A model generated the notes under the pieces. The model worked only from the letters and a program-made list of their open reading frames with translations, had not been told where the DNA came from and did no database searches. Below are positions 1 to 60,439 of a stretch of 64,000 nucleotides of DNA, in pieces. The stretch comes from Naegleria gruberi (Eukaryota): the NCBI GenBank assembly GCA_000004985.1, contig GG738897.1. One strand, given 5' to 3'. Both the position numbers and the translations under genes were made by a program. Positions within the stretch are counted from its first letter, which is position 1. Each line of letters begins with the position of its first letter.

Positions 1-233
1 ACCAAACCCAAACCCAAACCCAAACCCAAACCCAAACCCAAACCCAAACCCAAACCCAAACCCAAACCCAAACCCAAACCCAAACCCAAACCCAAACCCA
101 AACCCAAACCCAAACCCAAACCCAAACCCAAACCCAAACCCAAACCCAAACCCAAACCCAAACCCAAACCCAAACCCAAACCCAAACCCAAACCCAAACC
201 CAAACCCAAACCCAAACCCAAACCCAAACCCAA
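1..233. repeat. Telomeric hexamer array (CCCAAA)n, about 39 perfect tandem copies; G-strand repeat is TTTGGG
   Basis: Perfect 6-bp periodicity from base 1 to 233, C-rich strand 5'->3' at the left end of the window as expected for a left telomere; the repeat stops abruptly at 'cccaattctaaaaatag'. Confidence 0.9.
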
Positions 234-300
234 TTCTAAAAATAGAATTCTTCTAAACCCAACGTTCAAACCCTAGCCCAAAATTATAAACTTATTCAAA
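234..300. repeat. Degenerate telomere-associated transition zone (variant units CTAAACCC, CAAACCCTAGCCC)
   Basis: Directly read: 'ttctaaacccaacgttcaaaccctagcccaaaa' carries C3A3-like and CCCTA(A/G)-like variants immediately internal to the perfect array. Confidence 0.4.
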
Positions 301-935
301 TATCATTAAATTTTATATCATTCGATAGCCAATGATGAGTAGAACAACGTGTTATATTTAGTTTTTCAATTTATAAAATATTAACTTTGTAAATAGTGTC
401 AGATTAAAATTTGTAAAATGAAACTATAGGAAGAATGATAATTTCAAAATCCTTTAATGAGATTATATAGTATATATCATCATTAACAACATCTATAATC
501 ACTCTCATATCAAATTTCAAAAGTTCAAGTCTGTAGATATAAAAGTATAGAGGGAAAAGGGAAGTTGTGAGGTACAATAGGTCAACAATAACTTTTGAGT
601 TTCTCATCAAAACATATTGAATCCTGACATGAAAATGTTCCATTTGATGAGTATACATCGAATATCAAATTTATTTTGACTTTCATATTTAAAGATTTCT
701 TCCCTCAACCATCATATGGTCAACTAGGTATGAAAAGGATAAAATCTTGAAAAAGAACCACTATTGAAACTTTACCAACATGATGTAGATGATCTATAAT
801 GATGTAGAGTTCAATATCATATCATAAAAATCAGAAATGGTACCGTAGGAAGATAATGGTTGACTTTATAAGGTTGACTTTAAGGAAATACAAGTCAGAC
901 CAAGTCTATCAAATACATCACTTCAATCAGCAAAA

Positions 936-3900: not shown

Positions 3901-3965
3901 NNNNNNNNNNNNNNNNNNNNNNNNNNNNNNNNNNNNNNNNNNNNNNNNNNNNNNNNNNNNNNNNN
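936..3965. other. Assembly gap (3,030 N)
   Basis: Uninterrupted run of n; the 1145-aa, 1036-aa and 1015-aa ORFs crossing it in the ORF track are translation artefacts (poly-X). Confidence 1.
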
Positions 3966-35351: not shown

Positions 35352-36749
<1,398 letters not shown>

Positions 36750-37053
36750 TTATTCGGGTTTTGGTGATTTTATTTATTTAATTTTGTAGTTTTGTATTTT
36801 GGCGGCAAAACGAATATACAACTCGATTACAACTACTGTTAAATTTTAAAAAGGAGGGAATATTTTGGCGCCAGTGTATTTTGAATCGAAAATTGTTGAA
36901 GGATGATGAGACTGAAATAAATACAAGAATTGGTGCGAATAATTACAAAGAAAGATTATAAATCATTGAAAGAAGAATGCCTTAATATAACGAGCAACCT
37001 AGTCCATTTTGAAGATCATTTCTCAGATTGGATATTTTAAAGAGAAAATCATT

Positions 37054-39111: not shown

Positions 39112-39942
39112 AGTTGTAGTCTATATTGATTAATAGCAAGTGTTCTATGAAATGTTCTGATTCGTGGGTCTGTTCAGGGACACTCTCTCGATATCTATTG
39201 AAAGGTTTTTTTTACAGTAAACAATTCCTTTGGCGCCTTTCAATTGTAGCTAATCACCTCACGTTGTTGTTTGGAAGTGATTGTGTGATGCCGAGAAAGA
39301 AAAAACAAGCCTTGACAAAAAGAGCTTTGTAAATATTTACGGGAAAATTGTTGTATGTTGATGTCAATTAATAAATCAACTAATACGTGTGGTGTGTTGT
39401 TGAAAAAATATTGCTTCTTATTGTATGTGGTGCTGATGAAATATTTGGAACAACTAGCAACACGGGCAATTTCGAATAATAGATCTGAAAGAAAGAAGAA
39501 GGTGTTGTTGAAATGATGAGGTTTTTTTGCAAAGTGCATGCAAAGATTTGTTGCTGCTTGTTGAAAAAAGGATCGTATTAAACCTTTTCAGTTTTCATCA
39601 ATGTTCAAAATAAGATTGGAAAGCAAAAACCGAAATAGTGGGAAACTTTCTCTTTTCGGCTAGTAAAGAACAAATTGAAATGCAAGTCATGGTTAATTGA
39701 GTAGCCAATAATTTACTTGTAATCAAGAAATACAACAACTTTGAAAGAGATTCGAAACAGATGTGATCGTATTGCCTCTTGGAAAGGACTGTTCGTTGAG
39801 GTTACAAGAATGGTTTTACTGGGTCTGTAAGTAGAATAAGTTTATTGTCGTATTTGAGAGAGACAGAAAAAATGATGTTGGTTGACTAATGATATTCCTT
39901 ATTAGCTCAATAAGAGATTCTCATTTCCAGATTGAATCATTT

Positions 39943-41493
39943 TCAATTGGTCATTTCATTAATTTTACCAGTGAATAAAATAGTATTGGTTGGCAAGTGT
40001 TGCAAAATAAATACAAATGGTCGATCAGCAATGAATTGATAGGAAGGAGTAAATTTTTTCATGGCTCTTCCACCACCTCTACCGCCCATTGCAGTAGCTG
40101 CAGCTGCAACTGTTCCAGATTCATCAACTTGAATGAAGGCCTTATGAATAACATTGCTAATGTGTACTTGATCGTTAGAATTGGCCAACATGCTTGAAAA
40201 ATCAGCTTGTGAAGAGAAAATATTCTTGATATTGAATGGATCTTCTCTAAATGATTGCACTAAATTTGGGAGTGTGGCTTGAAATTTGAATTTTGGAATT
40301 TCAATTCTGTCAACCTTTACAAAGGTATTTGGTTGGAGTTGAGTAACATCTTGGAGTTTTTCAATGATCCATTGATTGAAATCATTCTCAGTTTCTTCGT
40401 TGAGTGTGACATTTTCATTTGGTTTAATAAATGTCATGCAGTAATCTTCATCAGAGTAAGGCAATTGCAACAATTGATATTCATCCAAATTGGCATAACA
40501 AAATTTCTTATCAGAAGACATGTGCATCATATCACACTTGTCTCCACCACTTGGATTGGAAATAGTTCTGAAACTCTTCTTGAAGGTGGACCTATTTTTG
40601 AATTGATATTTCCACTTGCCATTGAAATAAATGGCATTCACAAGAACCATAATGGTTTGCCTATTTATATCTGTATCTGAAAGTAAATCTCTAATGTACT
40701 TTCTAGTTTTGTCTTCAACCCACTTGTTGATTAATCTGACTTGAGCAGAGGGCTTATTCATAAAGTCAACTCTCTCTGCTTGGGAATCGAACTTGCTTTC
40801 CAATTCTTGTAAGAATGGCTCTTTAATTTGAACAGTCTCTTGAAGATAAATTCTATTGGCAATGGAGAGTGTATCATTGGTTTGAATCAAGATCTTTATC
40901 ATGTTGGTATACTTTTCAAGTTCAGTTTTCTTCCAATTTTCAAACTTTTCCTTCAAAGTATTGAAATTTCCAACGCTATCATAACTCTTGCTCAAGAATA
41001 ATCCATCAATAATCTCAGTAAGAGATTCATTATTTGTACCCACCATACAATTCAAAAAGCAAATAAAAATTGAGAAGGGAGACATGACAACATTCTCCTT
41101 CAACCCAACTTTTATGCTAAACAAGGCAGATGAAAATTCATTCTCTGCCAATGACATGTTTGTTTGAGAAGTTGACACTCTTCTCTTTCCCCATGACGGT
41201 CTTGTTTGTTTTTGATCATCATTCTCATCAATCATGGCATTATCATCAATTTTACGATTTTTGCCATCATTGAATGAGAGACGATCAGTGTATTGATGAG
41301 TGGCCACTCTTCCACCTCTTGGAGATCCTCCTCTTCTATTGTGATTTCCACCACGATGGCTGGTTGTTGTGGATCGTTCAGAAGGAGGAGTAGATTGACC
41401 AATACCAATAGAAATGGAAGTTGTTGCTTCGGTGGTTGTCTTTTCTAATTGGCCGGTGAGTGGATTATTAGTAAATTTGGTGTGCTTTGGCAT
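39943..41493 (-). CDS. Serpin (serine protease inhibitor), inhibitory-type hinge
   Basis: NAIYFNGKWKYQF, hinge ESGTVAAAATAMGG, signature FIADRPFVFILQH; glycine/arginine-rich reactive loop MGGRGGGRAMKKF. The ORF track starts at 41553, but the A-rich leader suggests the ATG at 41493 (MPKHTKF…). Confidence 0.8.
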   Translation of the reverse strand: MPKHTKFTNNPLTGQLEKTTTEATTSISIGIGQSTPPSERSTTTSHRGGNHNRRGGSPRGGRVATHQYTDRLSFNDGKNRKIDDNAMIDENDDQKQTRPSWGKRRVSTSQTNMSLAENEFSSALFSIKVGLKENVVMSPFSIFICFLNCMVGTNNESLTEIIDGLFLSKSYDSVGNFNTLKEKFENWKKTELEKYTNMIKILIQTNDTLSIANRIYLQETVQIKEPFLQELESKFDSQAERVDFMNKPSAQVRLINKWVEDKTRKYIRDLLSDTDINRQTIMVLVNAIYFNGKWKYQFKNRSTFKKSFRTISNPSGGDKCDMMHMSSDKKFCYANLDEYQLLQLPYSDEDYCMTFIKPNENVTLNEETENDFNQWIIEKLQDVTQLQPNTFVKVDRIEIPKFKFQATLPNLVQSFREDPFNIKNIFSSQADFSSMLANSNDQVHISNVIHKAFIQVDESGTVAAAATAMGGRGGGRAMKKFTPSYQFIADRPFVFILQHLPTNTILFTGKINEMTN

Positions 41494-41649
41494 TGTGTGT
41501 TGTGTTTGAATAAATAATATTTTTTTTTGATTGTTTTTACAATCATTGATCAAGCTATTAATAATTGTTGTTGGAACATGTAGTGAAAATTATTGAACAT
41601 CCTTAAACGGTGTTACACAATAGGTGATTTGATTGTTAAAATAGCATGC

Positions 41650-41943
41650 TTAACAAGCTCCATGATATGAAGTTCCCTCTACTGATTTTGTTGTTGGTTT
41701 AAAAATCGTCTCACCCAAACCAATCTTGTTCGATTTCTTTTCAACCTTCTCGGCATTTGGTTTTCTTTCCTCTCCAACAACAATAGCAGGAAGCTTTTCT
41801 TTGGCTACTGTCTTGGTTCTCTTCTCCACTGTTTTGCTATCTACTTCCACAACCTCGGATGTTGTTTTTTTGGTTGTTTTCGAGACTCTTTGCGATTGGT
41901 TTTTTACCATTTTTTTTTGATCTTGAATGAAAGAGTTATCCAA
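41650..41943 (-). CDS. Small Lys-rich protein (97 aa), hypothetical
   Basis: ORF only; very basic (K/T/V-rich) with no recognisable domain; may be non-coding. Confidence 0.2.
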   Translation of the reverse strand: MDNSFIQDQKKMVKNQSQRVSKTTKKTTSEVVEVDSKTVEKRTKTVAKEKLPAIVVGEERKPNAEKVEKKSNKIGLGETIFKPTTKSVEGTSYHGAC

Positions 41944-42718
41944 TTTAAAGAAGAAATTGTAAACAAGTTAAGAATTGTTCCGTTACCTCCAACAAACTGA
42001 TGATGAAATTGCTTGATGATGTAATGGAACTTACATTTCACTAATCATTCAATGATTTTCAATATAATATTGTTGTTAGAAAACACCATTTCTCAAAGAA
42101 CCAATCGTATGCTAACTCTCACAACAGAATCCATCCAATACTAGTGACAGCAACAAATCGGTACTTCGAGCGTGATGAATCATCAACACCACATATTGAA
42201 ATGGTAGTTGTCAACCTCGTTTAGTTTTTGACAATGTGGATTAATTGGAAAAACAATAACAAAAATCGTAACTGTTCTTTTACTGTTTGGTTATTTTTGC
42301 ATCTGTGAGTCTTTTTCGACAAGTAAAAAAACGCAACACAACTCTTCTCTTGTGAACAAAGTTTTCGTTTCTTCTTCTTTCTAACACTTTCTGTTAGAAA
42401 CAAAACGATTCCTTTGCTTCTTCATCATTGAACAACTTTACACAAAGGGAAGATAATAATAGGGAAACCTTTTGCCATATTTCATCAACCTCTCAAAAAT
42501 TCTGAGCCTTTCACAAGTTGTTTCTCATACTGTTAGAAACCCCAAAAAAAAACACAACCAAACACTTCAACAACAAGTGCAGTAACAAGACACAGCACTA
42601 TATCGACAGTCATTAAGTTTCACATAGGTATTAAATAACAACAACAACAAGAAGGTCAACAACAGTTGTGAAAAACAATTTACGAAACATTATACGAAAC
42701 TAGACTGAAGAAACGGAA

Positions 42719-44563
42719 ATGCGACTTCCTTCTTCACACAACAATAATTATCAAGAAAATCTTTCACATGCCATCCAAGAAACTTTTAAAAAGTATAATG
42801 TACATTTAGAAATGTGTCTTGGCGATGGTTTCATCATGAATGGTTTTTTGGATTTTCTCAAGAATGAACTAAATGCCAGTTCTTTGGAATTTCTTGTTAA
42901 AATTGATGAATATTCGAATAGTCATAATTCGTCTACTTTCTATTCGAATGGCAGTAGTGTCAATAATGTAAATTCACCAGCAGGATTGCTTCCTTCAATT
43001 CAGACATCTACAACAACAATATCAACAATTAGTATTGGTTCTCCGTTGTCTCCATCAGTTTCGTCCACTAGTTTCACCTCACCAGGAAGAAAGGTTCAAA
43101 GAAAGGATTCTCTGAAGGATTTAACAGAACATAATTCAATTTTTTCACAACCCTTCAACAATAACAAGATAAGTAGAAAGGCCAAAGCTAAGGAAATTAT
43201 CGACAAATTTCTCAACGATCATTCAGCACATCAAGTCAACTTGTCCAGTCAAATAAGAGATGCTGTATTGAGAAATTATGAAAAGGAATGTTCTAGAGGA
43301 GGTGGTGAAAATGATATTAATCCACATTTATTTGATGAAGCCAGAACAGAAGTTAGTTTACAATTGAAATGCGACAGTTTCGTCAGATTTTTGAAGAGTC
43401 ATTCTTTTTTCAATTTGATTGTGAGTAAGGTAGAGAAGGAAGTTACCTCAAAGAATTTGGATGCCATTTACAAGTTTTTGAATATCTACTTTTCCAAGAT
43501 TGGAGAGACAAAGAAAAATCAAGTTTCTCAATTTATTACAAATAAGTCGAATAGAGCTCTTTCTCCTGCTTCACCTGCTTCTGGTTCTGGTTCAGGTTCT
43601 GGATCTCCATTGGGATTGGTTTCACCATTGGCTGATCTTTCAAGTGATGATGGTTCCATTGACTCGGTTGAATCAATTACTCATGTCAATCATGTTCAAA
43701 CAATGCTTTCCCTTCATACCCTTTCTCCAAATGGAATAGAAACAAAAATATTGGATAATGTTATGGATATTAGAGAAAAATTCACCAAATCTATTGCTGA
43801 ATTGGTAGATGATATTGTTACTGAGCAACAATTTGATTTACTTATCGAATTGGTCAATAACGAAAGTTTGTGGTTGAAAGTTCACGAAGATTCTGAATCC
43901 TCATGCTTTGTTTCAGAAAACAAATTCTATCACAACAGTAGAGGATTGAAAATTTATAAGGAAGTGGGAATTATTGAATCATCTCCTGAGGAAGTACTCT
44001 TTGCATTGACAGATATGAGAATCTTGAATATCATTGACGATACCATGTCCAATGTGAAATTTGAAAGATTTGTCAAAGGACCTACCTATGCAGTCAGCTA
44101 TTTGAGCAGTAAAATGAAAATGGCTTGGCCAATGAGTGATAGACAATTCCTGATTGGAACTTCCATTAGAGACGAAACATTTGATTCCTACAATGGATAT
44201 ACCATCTTGAGAAGAAGTCACGATTGCAAAGAGGTTCCACTCAGTAAGGGATGCATCAAGGGTATCTTTCTAGGAGGCGTTGTTATTGAGAAATTGAGTG
44301 AAAAACACACAAGATTCACAGCTTCAGGATTTGTTGACATGGGTGGCAAATTCCCACTTTCTCTCTTTAACAAGATTCTTTCACTAAGACAATCAAAAGG
44401 TGTTGAAAATGTCAAGAAGGGAATTTCAAAGAGAAGAAACATGCCACTTACAGAACAACAAGTCAACTCTGAAAATTCATTCTACTTGTTGGATACTCTC
44501 TTCTACTCGAGAGAACACAAAACTCAACCAAACAGTAGCAGCTCTCACACTCCTTCATTTTAA
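42719..44563 (+). CDS. RGS domain plus C-terminal START domain protein, paralog B (head-to-head with paralog A across the serpin)
   Basis: RGS block: GFIMNGFLDFLKNELNASSLEFLVKIDEYS…KAKEIIDKFL…HLFDEARTEVSLQLKCDSFVRFLKSHSF. START block: LKIYKEVGIIESSPEEVLFALTDMRILNIIDDTMSNVKFERFV…MAWPMSDRQFLIGTSIRD…GIFLGGVVIEKL…FVDMGGKFPLSLFNKILS. Confidence 0.6.
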   Translation: MRLPSSHNNNYQENLSHAIQETFKKYNVHLEMCLGDGFIMNGFLDFLKNELNASSLEFLVKIDEYSNSHNSSTFYSNGSSVNNVNSPAGLLPSIQTSTTTISTISIGSPLSPSVSSTSFTSPGRKVQRKDSLKDLTEHNSIFSQPFNNNKISRKAKAKEIIDKFLNDHSAHQVNLSSQIRDAVLRNYEKECSRGGGENDINPHLFDEARTEVSLQLKCDSFVRFLKSHSFFNLIVSKVEKEVTSKNLDAIYKFLNIYFSKIGETKKNQVSQFITNKSNRALSPASPASGSGSGSGSPLGLVSPLADLSSDDGSIDSVESITHVNHVQTMLSLHTLSPNGIETKILDNVMDIREKFTKSIAELVDDIVTEQQFDLLIELVNNESLWLKVHEDSESSCFVSENKFYHNSRGLKIYKEVGIIESSPEEVLFALTDMRILNIIDDTMSNVKFERFVKGPTYAVSYLSSKMKMAWPMSDRQFLIGTSIRDETFDSYNGYTILRRSHDCKEVPLSKGCIKGIFLGGVVIEKLSEKHTRFTASGFVDMGGKFPLSLFNKILSLRQSKGVENVKKGISKRRNMPLTEQQVNSENSFYLLDTLFYSREHKTQPNSSSSHTPSF

Positions 44564-45853
44564 TTCACTAATGAATTTTACAAATAGAGAAGATGATTAT
44601 ACGAATCATCTTCATTAATATGATTTGAAAACAAATCTGAATGCTTAGTCAAGCATCTATTGAGTTTACAATTTATTTGACATTATTTACATATCGAGAA
44701 CTTTTTATTTAGAAAGTCAAGTATTATTCTAGCCAAATAAGATGACCACTATCAACTGTAGTCAAGTAAAGTGTCAATCAACACTGTGAAAACTCAACAA
44801 GGCTACTTGACACCTTTGGCCAAAAGACGAAAACAAATCCAACACGTTTCAACTGGTCACTTTTCCAATATCTTAATGCCTAATTGATGTGTTGGTTTTA
44901 AAGATGTTTGATAGAAAGCATTATTTGAGGTTGAATTTAACATTTATAATTCGTCGGATTTATTAATTCCGAGTCACCTAGTTTCGTTAATACAACCAAA
45001 TATGAACTATGGTTGCAAAGTATATTGTAAAAGTGGTTGGTAAAATATCTTGGTGGTCTGTTGGTCAGTTATTCAAATACATTGATGGTCATACGTTTTC
45101 AATGGTACCATGAAGTTTCGAATAACATTTTCAGCCTCTTCTGACCAAAAACACAACATTATCCGAAATATGTTGAAGAAAGAGAAACCACTTTACGAAT
45201 TCGAGAATTGAATAATAGTATTGGTAACAATTAAAATAGCCTGATCTTCACGAATAAACTCATTAGAAAATCACCTTCATGTCAATTTTACTTTCGTCTA
45301 CTTTCTTCTATTCAATAATTCTCAATTTACCTCTCAAAAACACCAAATATCATCAGAGATTCCTTCTCCATTCAAGTCAAAACTCAAATATTTCACAACC
45401 CAAACCTTGCCATCACATCTCTCACATTTCCCTCACCAACCTCAATACCAGTGTACACAAAACCAACGTCACTTGCCATCAACAAAAAAGCGGATCTTCA
45501 TTTGACTGTTTGAAAATGGCTTCGTTCCCGCTCAAAATAGATTGCTATCATCGCGTCGAGTCTTTTTTCGTATTTCACGTAAAATGAAAGCGTTCATCAC
45601 ATCAGATCTTTTCTTCGATGAGAAACAGTTAGCACAGCGACCTGCCCGTTCTTCAGGCGTGAATTAAAACAAAAAATCATTTTCCATACAATTTCACGTT
45701 TGTTTATCGATAATCGCATCTATTAGCTCGACGCTTATACGATATACACCCAGCGACCCACTAAACAAAAGTAATTGCACAACAACGAGCAAAACAAAAA
45801 GGAAGACTGGAAAAGAAAATCTCGAGTCTATCCATTAATAGAAGAACAACATT

Positions 45854-47692
45854 ATGAGTGTTATTGAGAATTATTCTAATATTCAATCTACTACTACCTC
45901 TGCTAACAATAAGAGCAATTTTACAAGTTTAACCACATCAACAATGATATCGAATCAAACACCACCTCAACAAGGTGTTGTCAATACTCAAACACCAACT
46001 CTACGTACCCAACAAGAAATTAAAGCAGATTTGTATCAAGCAGTCATAAAAGGTATGATCAGCAGGGTACAAGAATGTTTGGAAGAGTTGTTGTCACTCG
46101 CTCATATTACTCAAAATACTGCCAATTCAACTGGTCAACTGTCATCTCCAGTTATTGGAAATGTATTGTATTCAACCTCACCTACTTCCCCTACTCACGT
46201 TAGTACCAACGGATTGGTTACAACACCAACATCAGATTTAGTCAACTCTGTAGAAGAATCAATTACCAATAATCATCCAGTTTCCTCCCCAAATAATTCA
46301 GTATCCTCTTCATCTTCATCTTTAATGATTGGTAGCCCAAATAATCATCTTTCAACTCACCTCTCAACAAGTGGATCACAAAAATTAATAACTATGGATC
46401 AAATAATACTGAAAACAACATTCCCTGAAGAATTTGATATGAATGTTGTTCATCTGTCGGCAAAACATGCACAAGCAGATATTCTCCAACACGTTATTTC
46501 ATCTGCTTGTTGTGATGAAAAGTGTTCGAATACAAATGGTGGTCCAAACGCCAATCACTCAAATGAATGTCAAAGAAAAACAAATGCTCTCCTATCAAGT
46601 GTGGATAAGCAAAATGCCACTCCAATTTTCTATGCTGTACAATCAGGATCAAATGGAATTTGTGCATTTTTATGTAGTTTTAAAATTGTACAGGATCAGT
46701 TAAATTTGCATGCTGATCGATATGGTTTCTTACCTGTTCACTGGGCTTTGAAGAGAAAACAATTCGAAATTAGTGATACATTACAATTATTTGGTGCAAA
46801 ACTCGATACCACTGTTGGTATCGGTGTTGGTCTTGGAGAATCTGTACTTCATATTGCTGTCAGAGAAAAATCTATGGAAAGCATTGAATATTTGGCAAAG
46901 ACAAAACCTGGTATCCTTTTAAAGAAAAATTCACAAGAAGAAAATGCTCTCTTTGTATGTTTGACTGATTTCAGAGGAACCAGAATTAAGAGGATTGAAG
47001 AATCTTTCCTCACCAAGCTTCTCCCAACTGGAGGTGATTTGTTTGGAAATGATGCATTCGAAAGAGCAATTCTTCAAAAGAATGGTCATGGTAGAAATAT
47101 CTTGATGGAATCTATTGCAAAGAATGACATGTCTTCCTTCTATGCTATCTTACAATATCTCTATCATGAAAAGAATTCAACAAAACAAAGATTAATTCCA
47201 ATTCTTTTCAACGAAGTTGATTCTCAACAAAAGAATTTGATGCACTTGTGTGTTCAATCAGTATTTTTGACAGGTATGGCCTTTGATCCTGATACAGATG
47301 AAGCTTCTCTTGATTGGATGAATGCTCTCGAATGGACTCATGATTTTATTGAAACTGTCAGTCCAGTATTGAAACTCAGCAAGATGGCTCACTTATTCCT
47401 TGCCAAGGATAAATATGGTGACACTCCAAAAGAAAGTTGTAATCAATTCTATGATGCCACCAGTGATGCACAAGAACCTTTAATTATTGCAGAATCCATT
47501 TCCGAGTCTCTTTTGGAAGCAGCCACCAGTTGGGCTTCTGGAAAAAAGCGAAAATCAAAGAAGGGTGGAAGAAAAACACTTAACTTTTCTGATACTGACG
47601 AAAATCAAAATGCCAAAGCTCCAAGAGCCTCGTCGCTCCATCAAGTTATGGATTTCATTGGTATTACTGTCAAGAGAGGTTTCAAGAAATAA
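45854..47692 (+). CDS. Ankyrin-repeat-containing protein
   Basis: Several 33-residue ANK-like units (TPIFYAVQSGSNGICAFL…; GFLPVHWALKRKQFEISDTL…; ESVLHIAVREKSMESIEYL…; RNILMESIAKNDMSSFYAIL). N-terminal Ser/Thr/Asn-rich region. Confidence 0.45.
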   Translation: MSVIENYSNIQSTTTSANNKSNFTSLTTSTMISNQTPPQQGVVNTQTPTLRTQQEIKADLYQAVIKGMISRVQECLEELLSLAHITQNTANSTGQLSSPVIGNVLYSTSPTSPTHVSTNGLVTTPTSDLVNSVEESITNNHPVSSPNNSVSSSSSSLMIGSPNNHLSTHLSTSGSQKLITMDQIILKTTFPEEFDMNVVHLSAKHAQADILQHVISSACCDEKCSNTNGGPNANHSNECQRKTNALLSSVDKQNATPIFYAVQSGSNGICAFLCSFKIVQDQLNLHADRYGFLPVHWALKRKQFEISDTLQLFGAKLDTTVGIGVGLGESVLHIAVREKSMESIEYLAKTKPGILLKKNSQEENALFVCLTDFRGTRIKRIEESFLTKLLPTGGDLFGNDAFERAILQKNGHGRNILMESIAKNDMSSFYAILQYLYHEKNSTKQRLIPILFNEVDSQQKNLMHLCVQSVFLTGMAFDPDTDEASLDWMNALEWTHDFIETVSPVLKLSKMAHLFLAKDKYGDTPKESCNQFYDATSDAQEPLIIAESISESLLEAATSWASGKKRKSKKGGRKTLNFSDTDENQNAKAPRASSLHQVMDFIGITVKRGFKK

Positions 47693-51929: not shown

Positions 51930-52991
51930 ATGAAAAACGCATTTTCACACACGAACAAAAAACCTCAACTCCTTCCATTGCAGAAACTTGACCCACTACT
52001 ACTAACAACATCAATGATGAAGAAATATTTGTCACTGACACTGCTCATCTCCATAGCATTGTTACTTTTAACCATTTATCCAAGCTATCAATTATCTCTT
52101 CGCTACGGATTGCAAAGTGTCAGCAATTCTACAATTGCAACAAAAGGTTGGCAATTCCCTCAAGCCATTGATGCAGCCACAGGTGTTTATATCAGGACAC
52201 AAGAATGGAGAACTTATTTGAATACTTTCACTAATTCATTCCCAGTGCCAGATTGTGAACCTCCTTCATTTCCTTCAGTTTTCAATTTTTCATCAACTGT
52301 TTTGAATTTATGTTATGAAAGCAATGCATTGTATCCTTGGAATTTAATACACATCAAGGCAGGTAATATGCTTGTTGATACATTGAAAAAACATTATGGT
52401 ATTGAATTGACAGCCAATTTTGTGTTAATTAATACGCAAACTGGCTATTTCACTTCATTAAAGAAGGCAGTTGATGATGGAAGCTGTGACGTTGCCATTG
52501 CTTCAACAAATATTGACAGTACCAGAACAACTCAAGCTCACTTCCAATGTGCCTACGGTTCTTCATATAATGCCTATATCAGATCCGAGCTTGATCCTAA
52601 TATTCGTGTTGAAAATGAAACTGGTCTTAATCAACCTGGAATTAAAGTTGCAGTTTACAAGACAACAACATACGATGCTTGGGCAACTGCGAATTTACCA
52701 CTTGCAACCATTATTAGATTTTCAGGTGGTTATTACGAAGCATGGCCAATGATTCTCGATAAACAGGTCCATGCAGTCATTACAGATGCTGTGGATTTGC
52801 TTTCTTGGCTTTCTACAAATAAGGGAAATTGCTCAACATGCAAAGTTGGACTCTTTGGAGATGTCTTTACTTATGGAAGCTTTGTGTCGAATCAATATGA
52901 TGTTAGAATTTCTGGAACTATTTCATTGTTGGAAATGCAAAATGCATTGCTCTTTATTCTCTCATGTTTAGCAACAATATTCCTGTTGTAA
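51930..52991 (+). CDS. Periplasmic-binding-protein type 2-like (SBP_bac_3 / glutamate-receptor ligand-binding-like) extracellular protein with N-terminal signal anchor and hydrophobic C-terminal tail
   Basis: …LKKAVDDGSCDVAIASTNIDSTRTTQAHFQCAYGSSYNAYIR… and …HAVITDAVDLLSWLSTNKGNCSTCKVGLFGDVF… resemble the two lobes of PBP2 domains (D.aia..tit..R…F..py; …a.v.d…..y). N-terminal hydrophobic LSLTLLISIALLLLTIY, C-terminal LLFILSCLATIFLL (GPI-like). Moderate-to-low certainty. Confidence 0.4.
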   Translation: MKNAFSHTNKKPQLLPLQKLDPLLLTTSMMKKYLSLTLLISIALLLLTIYPSYQLSLRYGLQSVSNSTIATKGWQFPQAIDAATGVYIRTQEWRTYLNTFTNSFPVPDCEPPSFPSVFNFSSTVLNLCYESNALYPWNLIHIKAGNMLVDTLKKHYGIELTANFVLINTQTGYFTSLKKAVDDGSCDVAIASTNIDSTRTTQAHFQCAYGSSYNAYIRSELDPNIRVENETGLNQPGIKVAVYKTTTYDAWATANLPLATIIRFSGGYYEAWPMILDKQVHAVITDAVDLLSWLSTNKGNCSTCKVGLFGDVFTYGSFVSNQYDVRISGTISLLEMQNALLFILSCLATIFLL

Positions 52992-53990: not shown

Positions 53991-56900
53991 CTATTTGAAA
54001 TATTTAAGAGAAAGTAATTGAGATGCTGAAGGTCTTTGATTTGCATCTTTTTCTAACATTTTCAAAACTATTTCAATCAATTCGTCCGAATATTCGCAAT
54101 GAGCAGATTCTTTCATTTGATTCTTCAATATTTTGATTGCATTCTCCGCTTGATTTCCCATTAGCAAGTTACTAATCGAAGTTGCCAAGTCATTGGTCAT
54201 GATTTGATAAATTGAAATACCCAATGAGAAAATATCCGTATTATATGAATATGAACTTCCAAGTGCAACTTCAGGACTCATATCTGAATAGTTTAGTTTA
54301 GTTTGGGTAATGAAAAATTATAATACTTACAAAGTGGAGTTCCAGCATAGGATTGACCTGTCATTTCTTGATACTTTTTGGCTAATCCAAAATCTGCCAA
54401 TACAATGTCAATATTGTCGCTTGTCATTTTCTTAATAAAAATATTTGTTTGCTTAATATCTCTGTGAATAATGTGCATTTCTTCATGTACATATTTCAAT
54501 GCATTCAACATTTGTTTCAATATTTGCTTGACAATCTTTTCACTGCAATTTTCTTGTTTCAATTTTGTTAAATCTCCCAATTCAAAATAATCCATGTCAA
54601 TAATCAATAAATTGTCATTTGTAATGAAATAATCATTAATTTTGATAATATTGGAATGGTTGATATGATTCAATTGAGATGCTTCTTTCATAATTGTATT
54701 CAAATCTGTCAATGTTTCAAATTTAACAAGTTTGATTGCTTTCAATTTGTTTTTCTTTAAATCTGTCACTTTGTAAACACTTCCAAATGCTCCTTGTCCA
54801 ATTCTTGTAATGTTTGAATATCTGGAGAATGGATTTATCATATCTGAGCCAACAGAAGATCCAGCAGATGAGGAAATAATCATTGAACTAGACGAAAGGA
54901 AAGTTGTTTCGGATAATTCAACATTTCCTGTGTCCAATTTAGCAATTTCAAAGTCCTTCTTTTTCTTTTTTGAGAAACACACGACTATTACAATAATTAA
55001 TATCACAACTATTAGTAAAATCAATAAAACCCCAACAATCGGTATCACAATAGCTACTATCAAAACTGTAGAATCAATTATTGACTGACTTTTGAGTTCA
55101 CAAAATTGACCTTCAAATCCAATCTTACATTGACAAACATCAATATCAGAACATTGTCCATTTCCATTACAAACATTTTCACTTGATGCCAATGTTCCAT
55201 TACAACTCAATTTGGAATCACATGTACTATTCCAAGAATTGTAAGTGTAGTTTCTTCCACAATATGGAATAATCTTTCGAATATAAGCTCTAGCATCAAT
55301 GAAAAAGATTTCACCCGTACTTTCATCGTAATCCACTTGTCTTGCAAACGTTGAAAAGATTGAATAAGTTCCAAATCCATCTCCATTGAATTTTGGGGAT
55401 GCAACTCTTGATCCAGCAATATCCAGCAATAAACCGCTCCGTTTCTGATACATTCGAACAAGAGAAGTTCCACTACCATCCAAAATAATTATATCTCCAT
55501 TCTTTTTCACATAGAAAGCAGAGGGATTATCGATCGATGATTGGAGGGCTGGTAGTTTATCACCTGAATAGCCCTGAATTGAATTTCCAACCAAAGTTCT
55601 TAAATAATAGGTGCCTTCAGATAGTTTTTCAATTCTTCTAATGGTAGCTTGTGTACTTAAATATATGTAACCACTATCATAGAAAATATTTGATATTACA
55701 CCTGGAAATGTCACATTACTCATGATTCCATCATCAGAAATGAGACCATTGTTTGAAAATGTAATATCTATTGACATTGTTTTAGTTGTTTGGCTGTATC
55801 TGTAAATTGCTGAATCCAAGGCGATTAGCAAATCACCAGTCGTATCCTCAACTGTCAATCCATTAATTAAATTAAATTGTGGACATGGAGAATCAACTGC
55901 ATTAATTCCAGTCACGAATGATCCACACACTGTTGATCCAATAACAGTTTCATAATTCATAGTGTCTGGATCGATTCGAATAAATCTACATGTATCCTTA
56001 ATATAGATTTTTCTATCAAATTTTGAGAACACTCCTTGAGCCTTTGCGGTGCCGAGTTGTGCATTGAAAGTAAAATAGGGTGATTTAACTGAAGCAAGTG
56101 GAGTTGTTAACAGTGAGCTACTTAAGGTGGTAGACTTGCCAGTAGTTTCATCAAATTTCTTCAAAGTTCTCATATCCATATAGTAGCTCACTTTCTTTGA
56201 TGCATCTCTCATTAACATTAACGGAGTTAAAGTTCTTGAAGCTGGACTTAGTCCTGCAATTGTGGAAACTCTTCCATTCGAAATTTCACTCAAATGATAT
56301 TGGTTTGTCACAAGAATTCTGGAATCTTGTTTGACAGCTCTTGGTAAATATCTACAGTTCCATCATTAAGGCAGGAATTATTCGAATTTTCCCGAATATT
56401 AAAAGAATTATACTTACAGAGCTGAGCTTTCGACTGGAATATTCTCACCATTGAATCCATAAACATAGACGATTGTGTTTGAAACATTAAGATGATCCAA
56501 TCCTCCAATTTTCTTCAATGTAAAACTTTCTAATTGAAAATCATAAAGTTGACCCATATTAAAAAAAAACAAATTTCTATCATTTTTTTGAAATCCATTA
56601 AATGTCAAAGATGTTGGCATTGGCGTGCTGAAAACTAACATTGATCCATTCTTAAAGTCAACATACTCATACAGAGTATTCAATGAACCTGAATATAAAA
56701 ATAAGGAATTAGAATCAGGATATCTGATATTTGGAATAGCAACAATTTGATCAAGATATCCATTTGGAATTGGAATTATTAATTGGTATAAAACTGTAGA
56801 TTTTTGTAAAATACTGATTAGATACTCAGAAGTTCTTAAATAAATTGTAGAATTGTCGAAAGAATCACCAAGTACATCAATCGCACTTGAATAAATTGGA

Positions 56901-58376
56901 GATTTGATTATTAAAGTCAAGTTTTGAGTTTCCACATTGAAATTGTAAAGTGATGTATCTAAATTAGTGAAAATCAAAACATCACCATTTCCAATATGGA
57001 TTGAATTGGCGACTAGCATGTAAAAACGCTGTGGAATGTTGGCCGTGTATTTGATTAATCTTTCACAACCCAATAAAGTGGTCATTTTTCCATTTGAAAC
57101 CTTTCGTAAATAATATGCTCTGTCAATAAAGTACAAGTCATTCTTATAGTAGAATGGGAATAAAACACTTCCTGTTGAATACATTTGGAGAGGTGAAATG
57201 TTTTCACCATTTGGATGATTAATTATTCCACCAGATAATGTGGAAACCATCTTGGTTTGTAAATCAATCTTTCGAATACAACTATTCGATTTATCTGCCA
57301 CTATTATCGCATTCTGAGTGATAATTAAAGAAGATGGTTCATAAAACTTGGTATTTAAAGAATCGAATAATTGATTATCACCATCGTATCCTTCTGAACC
57401 TCCAATAAGGATTTTAGTTTCATCTGAATTCAACAATTTCATTTGTATGAAATTATTACTTTGAGATGAAGTGTAAATTTCACCTCCATTCGAAACATAG
57501 ATACCATATCTTTCGTATAATTATTAAACAAATCATTCAATTATTCACTTACAAATTAGATTGAGCCACTCCTCCATCCACAATTCTATACATTCCATTT
57601 CCATCAATTGACTTGACTCTTTCTGCATCTGTAAAATAGACAATATCCTTATTTCCATTAGAAACAACGAATATATTCTTTGGAGATTGTAATTTCAAAA
57701 GCTTGGCATCTACACCATCATAATCACCATTTAAATAACCACCTCCTCCAATAATGGAAGTTTGTTTTGTGGAAATTTCGTATTTCTTGATTAGATTATT
57801 ATCTGTATCTGAAATGTAGGCAAATCCATTGGAAGAAACATAAACACCTCTTGGATTATTAAACGCATGTGCTATAGATGATGTTGTTCTTGTTCTATTC
57901 GAAACTATTCTAATCTTATTATTGAGTGAATCAGCAATAAACAAATCACCATTCAATGGATTCACAGATATAGCTGTCGGTGTATTCAATAATGTACCCA
58001 CAGCCTTCAATCCATCTCCATTGAATCCAGAAGTCACATATCCTGCATAAACTTCTGCATATTTATACATGTCAAAAATCCTAAAAACTACATGTCTATC
58101 AGCATCTGCAACAAAGACATCTCCATTCAAACCAGCACTCAAACCAGTAGGAGACAACATGTAGGCATATTTAGCCTCCACAATATCAAAATTATTGTTG
58201 AAACCTTCAAGTGTCTGTGTATAATAATTGACAGGTGTTGAAGATAGCGATTCCACAACCACCACCACCCCTGTAGACAACAACGCCATGAATACAAGCG
58301 CAAGGTATAAACATTGAATCCTCCTTGTTGTGCATAACATATTCTGACATCCATTGCTCAACCCACTTGTTACCAT
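53991..58376 (-). CDS. Receptor-like protein kinase of about 1409 aa: signal peptide, NHL-type beta-propeller repeats, EGF-like module, single TM, Ser/Thr-type kinase domain. 4 exons (58376..57553, 57509..56418, 56351..54331, 54283..53991)
   Basis: Four ORF-track segments join through GTAAGT donors at 57552, 56417 and 54330. Acceptors (tacgaaag|, aactgtag|, ctattcag|) give introns of 43, 66 and 41 nt, and the phases 2/2/1 reconcile exactly. Signal peptide CLYLALVFMALLSTGVVVVV. Repeated NHL-like units (…GDVFVADADRHVVFRI…; …GDLFIADSLNNKIRIV…; …AYISDTDNNLIKKY…). EGF-like CNGNGQCSDIDVCQCKIGFEGQFCE. TM LIVAIVIPIVGVLLILLIVVILIIVIVVCF. Kinase motifs GQGAFGSVYKV, AIK, HRDIKQTNIF, DFGLAK, GTPLYMSPEV (last split by intron 3). 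Confidence 0.6.
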
Positions 58377-59089: not shown

Positions 59090-60439
59090 CTAACAATAAT
59101 CTTGTAAAGTAAATGAGTATTGGTTCTGGAAATTGGATCTAGCTAGTTTAGGAGCCATTAGCCTCAAGCTTTCCAATAATGATTGTCTCTTCTCTGTCGA
59201 AAAGGAGAAATTTCCAATTTCCAAATAATAAAGGTTTGGTAACATTCCACCACCAAACTTGACATTATCAACTTCGTCCACCAAAACTTGTCCGTATCCA
59301 CCATTCCTTCTCTCCACTCTAAAATACTCAATCTGAGTAAATTCACCTATTCTCGAATAGAAATCTCCAGATATTTGATGACAAACACCAAGGTTCAAAT
59401 GTTTCAACTTAGGAAGAGCCTTCAAGAATCCATACAATCCTTCATCATTAATAGAAACTCCTATATATCCATAGCCATGATCAACGTCAATAGAAATTTT
59501 TTCAAGATTAGGGCACATTCTAGTTATGTACATTAGTATATTTACATCACAATAGTTATGAAAAAATATTTCAAGATCCAACAAATTAGGTGTCAACTTG
59601 AGAATGTCAATAACAAATTTTTGAGATTGTACATCATCCAAAATACATCCAGACACAATTCTCAAGTTTTTCAATGAGGTCAGTAGGGGACACTCGTAGA
59701 AATCTTCATATTTTTCATCTGAAACAGAATCTCCAAAGCTGATCTCCAAATTCTCCACCAAATGACAAAATCTCAACACATAATACATATCACTCAATAA
59801 ATGCTCGAAATACAATTTTAAATTCTTCATAAAGAAACCAAGTGGGATTGTTATAATTTCCTTTTCCTTAACTATTCGTTTCTCCTCAATTGTTGACTCT
59901 CCCTCATTGCTAAAATTAAAGCCAACAGTTGGTTGCAACACAACAAATGGAATTTTTCTTTTTTCATAAATGGAATCAAAATTTTTAACCTCCATTTCGA
60001 AATAAACCTTAGCATTAACAAAATTAAAGAAATTAAATTCCAATTCTTCTGAAAGAAGCTTTAAATTTCCTCTATATTGTTCGGCTATTTTCGTGAACAA
60101 TGCAAAATTAAATGTACTAGCATCAATAACCACATTTTTGCAAATTCTCAATATTGTTGCAATTGACCAATATTCATGTTGATTTTGTACATATTCAACA
60201 GCCATTGGATACATGATCGAAATCCAATCACGAATGATTGAATAATTTCTCTGACAAGTCATTGAATAATTTATCAATCCACCAAACGTCAGAAATTTAA
60301 ACATGTAATTTAATTCATCACTCGCCAATCGATCGAGAATGATCTCGGAATGATCATTTGCAATTTTTGTTTTTTTAGCCATTTCCATATTTTTCAATGA
60401 AAAATCGGAAAGAGTTCCACTATGGGTGCGTTTCAACAT
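59090..60439 (-). CDS. F-box-like / LRR (FBXL-type) protein
   Basis: N-terminal SEIILDRLASDELNYMFKFLTFGGLINYSMTCQRNYSIIRDW fits an F-box loosely. C-terminal irregular Leu-rich repeats (…LKNLRIVSGCILDDVQ…LKLTPNLLDLEIFF…LKALPKLKHLNLGVCHQISGDFYSRIGEFTQIEYF…LPNLYYLEIGNFSF…). 449 aa, single exon. Confidence 0.4.
   Translation of the reverse strand: MLKRTHSGTLSDFSLKNMEMAKKTKIANDHSEIILDRLASDELNYMFKFLTFGGLINYSMTCQRNYSIIRDWISIMYPMAVEYVQNQHEYWSIATILRICKNVVIDASTFNFALFTKIAEQYRGNLKLLSEELEFNFFNFVNAKVYFEMEVKNFDSIYEKRKIPFVVLQPTVGFNFSNEGESTIEEKRIVKEKEIITIPLGFFMKNLKLYFEHLLSDMYYVLRFCHLVENLEISFGDSVSDEKYEDFYECPLLTSLKNLRIVSGCILDDVQSQKFVIDILKLTPNLLDLEIFFHNYCDVNILMYITRMCPNLEKISIDVDHGYGYIGVSINDEGLYGFLKALPKLKHLNLGVCHQISGDFYSRIGEFTQIEYFRVERRNGGYGQVLVDEVDNVKFGGGMLPNLYYLEIGNFSFSTEKRQSLLESLRLMAPKLARSNFQNQYSFTLQDYC

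What the first reader, a model, noticed from the sequence alone, without database searches (positions are those of the whole stretch)
53991..58376. Four-exon receptor kinase with extracellular NHL beta-propeller and EGF module; the ORF track fragments it into four ORFs
Splicing at three GTAAGT donors (introns 43, 66, 41 nt) yields one about 1409-aa type-I membrane protein. Its extracellular part has about 10 NHL-like repeats (about 900 aa, probably two 6-bladed propellers), then an EGF-like Cys module, a TM helix and an intracellular Ser/Thr-type kinase (HRDIKQTN, DFG, GTPLYMSPE). Receptor kinases with NHL ectodomains are rare outside bacteria (PknD) and a few protists. Intron 3 splits the conserved GTPxYMSPE activation-segment motif.
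Basis: partly seen in the sequence, partly recalled or inferred. Interest (0 to 1): 0.6.

Follow-up and report, generated by a model that had tools for sequence, protein, structure and literature searches.

The report
Naegleria NHL-propeller receptor kinase gene
This is an ordinary, already catalogued but unstudied gene of the amoeba Naegleria gruberi that encodes a cell-surface receptor kinase with three NHL beta-propellers outside the cell.

Summary
Four minus-strand ORFs (275, 342, 672 and 96 aa) join through three GTAAGT...AG introns into one 1409-aa protein. The window is the telomere-proximal end of a Naegleria gruberi NEG-M scaffold.

The gene is already public as EFC39765.1 / D2VTQ4 / NAEGRDRAFT_72385, a 'predicted protein' of 1374 aa. 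That model uses the same three introns. It also removes a fourth, in-frame 105-nt 'intron' that deletes the transmembrane helix.

From N to C terminus the protein has:
- a signal peptide;
- about 18 NHL blades forming three six-bladed propellers, not two;
- one complete EGF-like module;
- one transmembrane helix followed by KKKKK;
- a Ser-rich juxtamembrane segment;
- a catalytically complete RD Ser/Thr kinase that is not TKL-like.

It belongs to a Naegleria-wide multigene family found in N. gruberi, N. fowleri and N. lovaniensis, so the architecture is not rare there. I found no paper describing the family. Comparison with a 97-98% identical strain shows a strongly constrained kinase (dN/dS 0.08) and a fast-evolving ectodomain. 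The most likely function is a ligand-activated type I receptor kinase. Interest is low to moderate.

The parts
57553..58376 (-). Exon 1 (ATG at 58376; aa 1-274 plus 2 nt). It encodes the signal peptide (aa 1 to about 43, 58248-58376) and NHL blades 1-4.
   Evidence: The public model EFC39765.1 uses the same start.
57510..57552 (-). Intron 1, 43 nt, GTAAGT...AAG, phase 2
   Evidence: The junction QSNL|YGIYV is colinear with P0001 and P0002 and identical in EFC39765.1.
56418..57509 (-). Exon 2 (aa 275-638)
   Evidence: AF2 model of this exon is all-beta.
56352..56417 (-). Intron 2, 66 nt, GTAAGT...TAG, phase 2
   Evidence: 65 of 66 nt are identical in strain contig L001.
54331..56351 (-). Exon 3 (aa 639-1312): last blade of propeller 2, propeller 3, EGF, TM, juxtamembrane segment, and the kinase up to GTPL
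54284..54330 (-). Intron 3, 47 nt (not 41), GTAAGT...CAG, phase 1. It splits the Tyr codon of GTPL|YMSPE.
   Evidence: P0002, P0174 and P0175 read GTPL(F/Y)MSPE across it. The model of P0001 reads through the same site ('GTPLCK...').
53991..54283 (-). Exon 4 (aa 1313-1409 plus stop TAG at 53991-53993): C-lobe of the kinase
   Evidence: The 96-aa ORF clusters with EFC39765.1.
57230..58208 (-). Propeller 1 (aa about 57-368, spans intron 1): six canonical NHL blades
   Evidence: Six hits of the blade HMM at aa 66-100, 110-162, 168-200, 211-262, 273-298 and 312-357. Pfam NHL and TEN_NHL. PDB sequence hits to a teneurin-like protein, NHLRC2, SOQ1 and the PknD sensor.
56255..57163 (-). Propeller 2 (aa about 391-671, spans intron 2): six strongly diverged blades
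   Evidence: AF2 gives 21 strands in exon 2 (pLDDT 52-80) plus 3 strands at the start of exon 3, which makes 24. NHL-HMM hits in homologues map to model aa 365-418, 419-473, 572-605 and 610-668. Six-bladed closure is inferred, not seen.
55268..56218 (-). Propeller 3 (aa about 684-1000): six-bladed NHL-type propeller
55100..55261 (-). Cys-rich region (aa 1003-1056): a vestigial half-module plus one complete six-Cys EGF-like module ending CQCKIGFEGQFC
   Evidence: Regex match to C-x-C-x2-[GP]-[FYW]-x4-8-C. Pfam EGF models are below cut-off here and above it in homologues. AF2 confidence is low.
54977..55072 (-). Transmembrane helix (aa about 1066-1097) followed by KKKKK
   Evidence: It is the only internal hydrophobic segment, with a maximum Kyte-Doolittle score of 4.0. 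Homologues have a similar helix plus K/R stop-transfer at the same place.
54985..55089 (-). The 105-nt in-frame segment (GTCAGT...ATAG) that the public model EFC39765.1 removes as a fourth intron. It is most likely coding and encodes the TM helix.
   Evidence: The only difference from strain L001 in this segment is a synonymous third-position change.
53997..54820 (-). Protein kinase domain (aa 1150-1408, spans intron 3). Motifs: GQGAFG 1157, K1179, E1195, HRDIKQTN 1268-1275, DFG 1292, SPE 1315.
   Evidence: Pfam Pkinase 190.5 bits against PK_Tyr_Ser-Thr 109.7 bits. Motifs. Closest solved kinases are CDPK, STK25/MST, SLK and NEK2.

Best explanation
The locus is a single functional Naegleria gruberi gene, public as NAEGRDRAFT_72385 / EFC39765.1, with four exons. 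It encodes a 1409-aa type I single-pass receptor Ser/Thr kinase.

Shown here:
- the exon-intron structure;
- the domain order: signal peptide, about 18 NHL blades, EGF-like module, TM helix, Ser-rich juxtamembrane segment, then a complete RD-type kinase;
- membership of a Naegleria-wide paralogous family;
- purifying selection on the kinase.

Inferred:
- The three stacked six-bladed NHL propellers are displayed on the cell surface and bind an extracellular ligand, such as a macromolecule from prey, the environment or another cell.
- Ligand-driven clustering or dimerisation brings the cytoplasmic kinase domains together. They then trans-phosphorylate the Ser/Thr/Tyr-containing activation loop (DFGLAKKYQEMTGQSYAGTPLYMSPE) and the Ser-rich juxtamembrane segment.
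- The activated kinase relays the signal to motility, phagocytosis or differentiation pathways.
- The fast-evolving faces of propellers 2 and 3 are the probable ligand-specificity surface.
For: Gene model. The three introns restore one ORF. Their junctions are colinear with paralogues and identical to those in the public model.

Organism. Neighbouring ORFs match N. gruberi proteins EFC39693, EFC39694, EFC39767 and EFC39761 exactly.

Domains.
- Pfam finds Pkinase, NHL and TEN_NHL.
- Exon 2 is all-beta with a four-strand periodicity.
- Up to 16 NHL units in homologues map onto the model.

Topology. There are two hydrophobic segments, KKKKK follows the TM helix, and the ectodomain carries 10 N-glycosylation sequons.

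Catalysis. All catalytic motifs are present.

Selection. Against a 97-98% identical strain, dN/dS is 0.08 in the kinase and in the TM plus juxtamembrane segment. It is 0.69 in propeller 2 and about 2 in the first half of propeller 3. The contrast gives Fisher P = 5e-4.

Family. The same architecture occurs in N. gruberi, N. lovaniensis and N. fowleri proteins.
Against: - No transcript data were available, so the junctions and the retention of the TM-coding segment rest on homology and sequence logic.
- No ligand, substrate or localisation is known for any family member.
- The six-bladed closure of propellers 1 and 2 is inferred. AF2 could only be run exon by exon, and exon 2 gave a moderate pLDDT of 65.
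- The EGF module is below the Pfam cut-offs and poorly modelled.
- The high dN/dS in the ectodomain rests on one pair of sequences. It could reflect relaxed constraint or recombination rather than selection on ligand binding.
Confidence: 0.8

Rival explanations
1. The public five-exon model is right. The 105-nt segment 55089-54985 is a real intron, and the mature protein (1374 aa) has no transmembrane helix, so it is a secreted or lumenal NHL-EGF-kinase protein.
For: The segment has GT...AG ends and its length is a multiple of three. The JGI/GenBank model EFC39765.1 removes it. JGI models of the paralogues EFC40140, P0001 and P0002 also clip this region.
Against: - The segment encodes the only internal hydrophobic stretch, and KKKKK follows it directly.
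- Homologues from N. fowleri and N. lovaniensis, other N. gruberi paralogues, and uninterrupted metagenomic ORFs (P0211, P0212, P0217) all keep a TM of about 30 residues plus K/R at this place.
- The donor is GTCAGT, unlike the three GTAAGT donors.
- The only strain difference inside the segment is synonymous.
- A signal peptide without a TM helix would put an ATP-dependent kinase outside the cell.
Confidence: 0.08
2. The protein acts mainly as an adhesion or phagocytic recognition receptor, comparable to Entamoeba transmembrane kinases such as PATMK, and not as a sensor of a soluble ligand. The NHL propellers bind surfaces of prey or particles, and the kinase couples engagement to the actin machinery.
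For: - Naegleria is a bacterivorous, phagocytic amoeba (own knowledge).
- A transmembrane kinase of another phagocytic amoeba takes part in ingestion (PMC2211552, listed).
- The closest structural matches include the teneurin NHL propeller, which belongs to a cell-adhesion protein.
- The ectodomain is large, multi-paralogue and fast-evolving.
Against: No data bear directly on the function of any family member. This is a variant of the best explanation: the same receptor-kinase mechanism with a different class of ligand.
Confidence: 0.3
3. The locus is a decaying pseudogene or four separate small genes, and the apparent spliced ORF is fortuitous.
For: A prokaryote-style ORF track shows four separate ORFs. 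A metagenome gene caller split the same locus in the same way.
Against: - Splicing gives 4230 nt with no stop.
- The alignment to paralogues is seamless across every junction.
- The ORFs of exons 2 to 4 have no start context of their own, and their domains are split by the breaks.
- dN/dS is 0.08 in the kinase.
- The introns are conserved in a second strain.
Confidence: 0.02

Closest known systems
Uncharacterised Naegleria NHL-EGF-TM-kinase paralogues and orthologues. N. gruberi: EFC40140, EFC41556, EFC39508, P0001, P0002. N. lovaniensis: KAG2386590, KAG2373573, KAG2374501. N. fowleri: KAF0978328.
   Same: They share the full-length colinear architecture and have 26-53% identity over 1180-1350 aligned residues. 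The kinase subfamily is the same, at up to 86% identity to the kinase-only model P0174.
   Different: The window gene has lost half of the first EGF-like module. Its middle propeller is more diverged: only weak NHL HMM hits remain there. Some relatives are much longer or carry a GPS-like motif.
Mycobacterium tuberculosis PknD, a bacterial receptor Ser/Thr kinase with an NHL beta-propeller sensor (PDB 1RWI/1RWL)
   Different: In PknD the kinase is N-terminal and the single propeller is C-terminal (own knowledge). Here the order is reversed (type I), there are three propellers and an EGF module, and the gene is eukaryotic with spliceosomal introns. No specific kinase-domain relationship was seen.
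Teneurins (metazoan type II adhesion proteins with EGF repeats and an NHL propeller)
   Different: Pfam found no YD-shell, Tox-GHH or other teneurin domains. The membrane orientation and the EGF/NHL order are opposite. Teneurins have no kinase (own knowledge).
Plant RLK/Pelle receptor kinases and protist single-pass transmembrane kinases (Entamoeba TMKs; survey in PMC10463195)
   Same: The logic is the same: a lineage-specific ectodomain, one TM helix and a cytoplasmic RD kinase, expanded as a multigene family. The survey abstract reports that most non-kinase domains of protist TMKs are grouping-specific.
   Different: The kinase here is not TKL/Pelle-like: Pkinase scores 190 bits against 110 for PK_Tyr_Ser-Thr, and the closest solved kinases belong to the CAMK, STE20 and NEK groups. 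The terms Naegleria and NHL do not occur in that survey.

Membership tests
Eukaryotic protein kinase superfamily (Pfam PF00069 Pkinase) | Profile score above the curated cut-off over the whole domain | tested here: met
   190.5 bits against a cut-off of 31.7, profile positions 1-263 of 263, aa 1150-1408
Eukaryotic protein kinase superfamily (Pfam PF00069 Pkinase) | Catalytic residues present: Gly-rich loop, beta3 Lys, alphaC Glu, HRD Asp, Asn, DFG Asp, APE-type motif | tested here: met
   GQGAFG 1157, AIK with K1179, E1195, HRDIKQTN 1268-1275, DFG 1292, SPE 1315. Activity itself was not tested.
Ser/Thr-specific, non-TKL kinase | HRDxKxxN catalytic loop and a better fit to the Ser/Thr profile than to the Tyr/TKL profile | tested here: met
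   HRDIKQTN is present. Pkinase scores 190.5 bits against 109.7 for PK_Tyr_Ser-Thr. The top PDB relatives are CDPK, STK25/MST, MYLK4, SLK, NEK2 and PAK.
A named kinase group (CAMK, STE, NEK and others) | Clear best affinity to one group | tested here: inconclusive
   The best solved hits from three groups lie within 105-93 bits of each other. The GTPxYMSPE and NIFI motifs look NEK-like (own knowledge). No phylogeny was made.
NHL-repeat beta-propeller (PF01436 / PF25021) | Repeat profile above the curated cut-off | tested here: met
   NHL 59.7 bits against 20; TEN_NHL 39.3 bits against 27.1. A 57-aa blade HMM finds 11 units.
NHL-repeat beta-propeller (PF01436 / PF25021) | Six-bladed propeller fold | tested here: met
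EGF-like domain | Six-cysteine pattern with the C-x-C-x2-[GP]-[FYW]-x4-8-C signature | tested here: met
   CNGTLASSENVCNGNGQCSDIDVCQCKIGFEGQFC. The regex matches aa 1045-1056.
EGF-like domain | Pfam EGF-family profile above the curated cut-off | tested here: not met
   EGF_Teneurin 17.3 against 24.3; EGF_2 16.3 against 22.1; EGF 13.5 against 21.5. The homologous module passes in relatives: EGF_2 at 25.8, 31.3 and 38.3 bits, EGF_Teneurin at 28.6 and 47.8 bits. AF2 confidence here is low.
Type I single-pass receptor | N-terminal signal peptide, one TM helix, positive charge on the cytoplasmic side, kinase C-terminal to the TM helix | tested here: met
   Hydropathy shows only two hydrophobic segments, at aa 19-46 and about 1066-1097, followed by KKKKK. 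No dedicated predictor or experiment was available.
PknD-type bacterial receptor kinase | N-terminal cytoplasmic kinase, TM helix, C-terminal single NHL sensor | tested here: not met
   The domain order is reversed, there are three propellers plus an EGF module, and the gene is eukaryotic with introns. It works like PknD but is not a member.
Teneurin | Type II orientation, EGF repeats N-terminal to the NHL domain, YD-repeat shell and toxin-like C-terminus | tested here: not met
   Pfam gives only the NHL and EGF-type matches, with no YD or Tox-GHH families. The orientation is opposite.
Plant RLK/Pelle or animal TGF-beta-type receptor kinases (TKL group) | Kinase domain of TKL type | tested here: not met
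   No TKL kinase appears among the 60 best solved relatives. The PK_Tyr_Ser-Thr profile scores 80 bits lower than Pkinase.
Naegleria NHL-EGF-TM-kinase family (uncharacterised) | Full-length colinear homology and the same Pfam architecture | tested here: met
   Alignments. Pfam of seven relatives. Species names.

The most novel reading that the evidence does not exclude
Heterolobosean amoebae assembled their own large family of receptor Ser/Thr kinases, independently of plants and animals. These join triple NHL propellers, or in relatives RCC1 propellers or GPS-motif ectodomains, to a lineage-specific non-TKL kinase. Their propeller faces evolve under diversifying selection because they act as pattern-recognition receptors for bacterial prey, or as self/non-self or mating recognition receptors.
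Probability: 0.15. Interest if true: 0.6.

Novelty: new member of a known kind. Interest (0 to 1): 0.3.

Why it matters
For the genome, this is routine: an intron-containing eukaryotic gene that a prokaryote-style ORF track fragments, and that is already deposited as a 'predicted protein'.

Two points have some value:
1. The public models of this gene and of several paralogues splice out the AT-rich TM-coding segment. These receptors are therefore mis-described as soluble proteins and would be missed by surveys of transmembrane kinases.
2. Naegleria, including the pathogen N. fowleri, carries an unstudied multigene family of surface receptor kinases with NHL-propeller ectodomains and a non-TKL kinase. 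That is another independent assembly of the receptor-kinase architecture, and a possible set of environmental or prey sensors and surface antigens.

Tried and rejected
I therefore modelled exon by exon, which cuts propellers 1 and 2.
- The exon-2 model gave only generic propeller matches with high rmsd.
- The afdb50 fold library was not available.
- Three homology searches failed to return the locus's own annotated protein, and for a while I thought the gene was unannotated. The cause is that its 90% cluster is represented by a 96-aa metagenome ORF. The hits in each search also fell within about 0.55-1.75 times the query length. The exact look-up resolved this.
- Exact contig look-ups for P0001, P0002, P0174 and P0222 found nothing. 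Intron conservation in the paralogues' DNA could therefore not be checked directly.
- Contig L001 is too close (97-98% identical) to distinguish introns from exons by divergence.
- There is no paralogue inside the window.
- Literature searches found no description of the family.
- I considered and rejected a TKL/RLK-Pelle kinase, PknD membership, teneurin membership, a pseudogene, and four separate genes.
Full report
What is in the sequence. The region 53991-58376 carries four consecutive minus-strand ORFs of 275, 342, 672 and 96 aa. The window is AT-rich (about 33% GC) and gene-dense. On the sense strand of the gene there are exactly three GTAAGT hexamers, at 57552, 56417 and 54330, and each lies at the end of an ORF. 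The hexamer is rare in the window, with 19 copies on both strands, so about 0.7 would be expected in 4.4 kb. Removing 43 nt (57552-57510), 66 nt (56417-56352) and 47 nt (54330-54284), all GTAAGT...AG, gives a 4230-nt reading frame without an internal stop, encoding 1409 aa. A 41-nt intron ends in ACT, not AG, and produces GTPLYSDMSPE. Intron 3 is phase 1 and does split the Tyr codon of the activation-segment motif.

Which organism, and is the gene known. The window starts with a (CCCAAA)n telomere-like array followed by an assembly gap at 936-3965. Several neighbouring ORFs are exact matches to Naegleria gruberi proteins on one 326,913-bp contig: EFC39693, EFC39694, EFC39767 and beta-tubulin EFC39761. 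Three homology searches returned only paralogues, so the locus at first looked unannotated. An exact look-up of the 96-aa exon-4 ORF then showed that its 90% cluster contains EFC39765.1 / XP_002672509.1 / UniProt D2VTQ4 / NAEGRDRAFT_72385. This is a 1374-aa 'predicted protein' on the same contig. The gene is therefore already public.

Comparison with the public model. The public sequence is identical to my model across all three junctions. It differs in one place: it also removes 105 nt (55089-54985, GTCAGT...ATAG, in frame). That changes ...CELK-SQSIIDSTVLIVAIVIPIVGVLLILLIVVILIIVIV-VCFSKKKKK... into ...CELKIVCFSKKKKK..., which deletes the transmembrane helix. I judge that extra intron to be an annotation artefact, for five reasons:
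- The segment is the only internal hydrophobic stretch, and KKKKK follows it.
- Homologues from N. fowleri (P0362) and N. lovaniensis (P0214, P0361), other N. gruberi paralogues (P0218, P0219), and uninterrupted metagenomic ORFs (P0211, P0212, P0217) all keep a helix of about 30 residues plus a K/R cluster at that position.
- The JGI model of paralogue EFC40140 clips the same region that its more than 90% identical metagenomic counterpart P0212 keeps.
- The single difference from a second strain inside the segment is a synonymous third-position change.
- A signal peptide without a membrane anchor would export a kinase.
Transcript data were not available to prove it.

Independent support for the splice model. 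The spliced protein aligns without gaps across each junction to N. gruberi paralogues: QSNL|YGIYV, ESSAL|YLPRA and GTPL|YMSPE. The deposited model of P0001 ends 'GTPLCKFLHNWSI', a read-through of a GTAAGT donor at the same site. P0002, P0174 and P0175 read GTPL(F/Y)MSPE across it. A metagenome contig (L001, ENA ERZ929261) carries the same gene at 97-98% nucleotide identity, with both covered introns intact.

Domain anatomy. Pfam gives Pkinase at aa 1150-1408 (E 5e-56), NHL (59.7 bits, cut-off 20) and TEN_NHL (39.3 bits, cut-off 27.1). The EGF models stay below their cut-offs. Hydropathy shows an N-terminal signal-like segment (aa 19-46) and one TM helix (about 1066-1097). The ectodomain has ten N-glycosylation sequons. 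The Cys-rich stretch ends in a complete six-Cys EGF pattern (CQCKIGFEGQFC). Compared with the paralogues, half of a first EGF-like module (CxCLEGFYGSNC) is deleted. In relatives the homologous modules pass the Pfam EGF cut-offs.

How many blades. The true number is larger:
- AF2 of the exon-3 ectodomain (aa 640-1062) gives a confident (pLDDT 80-95) run of 6 x 4 strands at aa about 684-1000. Three low-confidence orphan strands precede it.
- AF2 of exon 2 (aa 276-638, pLDDT 65) shows two confident blades that complete propeller 1, a linker, and then 21 further strands. With the three orphan strands of exon 3 these make 24.
- In less diverged homologues the blade HMM finds up to 16 units, and these map through the family alignment onto model positions across the whole ectodomain. 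Only about aa 474-570 lacks such support.
The best reading is 18 blades in three six-bladed propellers (aa about 57-368, 391-671 and 684-1000). The closure of propellers 1 and 2 is inferred, because only per-exon models could be made.

The kinase. All catalytic motifs are present: GQGAFG, K1179, E1195, HRDIKQTN, DFG and SPE. This predicts an active RD-type Ser/Thr kinase. The closest solved kinases are CDPK, STK25/MST, MYLK4, SLK, NEK2 and PAK at nearly equal scores, and the Ser/Thr profile beats the Tyr/TKL profile by 80 bits. It is not a TKL/RLK-Pelle kinase, and the group assignment stays open. Beyond the family, identity drops to about 35%.

Family and distribution. The exhaustive representative search with exon 3 returned many proteins that match from the last NHL blades through EGF and TM into the kinase. 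The named ones come from three species:
- N. gruberi: EFC40140, EFC41556, EFC39508, EFC41150.
- N. lovaniensis: KAG2386590, KAG2373573, KAG2374501 and KAG2374519.
- N. fowleri: KAF0978328, KAF0980309.
Pfam confirms NHL...EGF...Pkinase in seven of them and in further unnamed representatives. Kinase-only N. gruberi models (P0174 at 86%, P0175 at 78%, P0178) are probably truncated models of more paralogues. Related kinases sit behind other ectodomains, namely RCC1 propellers (P0237/L003, P0314) and GPS-like motifs (L002, EFC41150, KAF0980309). The architecture is therefore common in Naegleria, not rare. I found no paper on it. A 2023 survey of protist transmembrane kinases does not mention Naegleria or NHL.

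Selection. Against L001, dN/dS is 0.08 in the kinase and 0.08 in the TM plus juxtamembrane segment. It is 0.10 in the second half of propeller 3, 0.69 in propeller 2 and about 2 in the first half of propeller 3. The contrast between aa 366-800 and aa 801-1409 is significant (Fisher P = 5e-4). This rules out a pseudogene and marks the outer propellers as the fast-evolving part. With one sequence pair, relaxed constraint, diversifying selection and recombination cannot be separated. The uneven dS (0.075 against about 0.02) leaves recombination open.

Mechanism. The architecture of a type I receptor kinase is shown. The mechanism is inferred: the propellers bind an extracellular ligand, clustering activates the RD kinase by trans-phosphorylation of its activation loop, and the signal feeds into motility, phagocytosis or differentiation. 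The nearest functional analogues are PknD, plant RLKs and Entamoeba TMKs. It is a member of none of these, because it has the reversed domain order relative to PknD, a non-TKL kinase, and no teneurin YD shell.

Verdict. This is a real, functional, already deposited gene and a member of an uncharacterised Naegleria receptor-kinase family. Interest is low to moderate. The useful by-product is the evidence that the public models delete the TM helix.

Noticed in passing
window 1-935 and 936-3965: The window begins with about 230 nt of (CCCAAA)n, the complement of TTTGGG. This looks like a telomere-type array at the scaffold end. An assembly gap of 3030 N follows, so the kinase gene lies about 54-58 kb from a chromosome end.
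   Followed up: partly
window 54985-55089 (-); also paralogues P0359 (EFC40140), P0001, P0002: Public JGI/GenBank models of this gene and of several paralogues splice out all or part of the AT-rich TM-coding segment as an in-frame 'intron'. Metagenomic ORFs and N. fowleri and N. lovaniensis models keep it. This looks like a systematic annotation artefact that hides these receptors from transmembrane-kinase surveys.
   Followed up: yes
L002 3-744 and 745-1605 (ENA ERZ27315067 k141_125727); P0216 (EFC41150), P0369/P0220 (N. fowleri): Kinases of the same subfamily are preceded by a GPS-like motif (C..W..C..HLT(T/S)F(A/S)V) directly before the TM helix. This suggests that some family members have an autoproteolysis-type juxtamembrane module like those of adhesion GPCRs and polycystins. 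P0176 on L002 has no intron at the GTPL|YMSPE site.
   Followed up: partly
L003 640-4839 (P0237); P0314: Related kinases (about 40% identity in the kinase domain) are fused to RCC1-repeat propellers instead of NHL propellers. One kinase lineage is thus combined with different propeller types.
   Followed up: partly
window 56255-57163 compared with the rest of the gene, against L001: Synonymous divergence from the metagenomic strain is uneven: dS is 0.075 in propeller 2 and about 0.02 elsewhere. This hints at recombination or gene conversion among alleles or paralogues.
   Followed up: no
window 55190-55261 (-), aa about 1003-1028: The first EGF-like module found in the paralogues (NxTCxCLxGFYGxxC) has lost 10-12 residues in this gene, leaving an odd number of cysteines before the complete EGF module.
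   Followed up: partly
window 35352-47692: The neighbourhood holds a beta-tubulin (35352-36707, -, = EFC39761), two RGS-domain proteins (37054-39111, -; 42719-44563, +, RGS plus START, = EFC39692), a serpin (39943-41553, -) and an ankyrin-repeat protein (45854-47692, +, = EFC39693). The flanking genes 51930-52991 (+) and 59090-60439 (-) have no Pfam match.
   Followed up: partly
L001 (ENA ERZ929261, PRJEB11402, contig k127_416833): An environmental metagenome contains a 3.7-kb contig that is 97-98% identical to this locus. A prokaryotic gene caller fragmented it into the same ORFs. The protein database therefore represents this Naegleria gene by a 96-aa and a 672-aa 'bacterial-style' ORF, which masked the real annotated protein in the homology searches.
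   Followed up: yes
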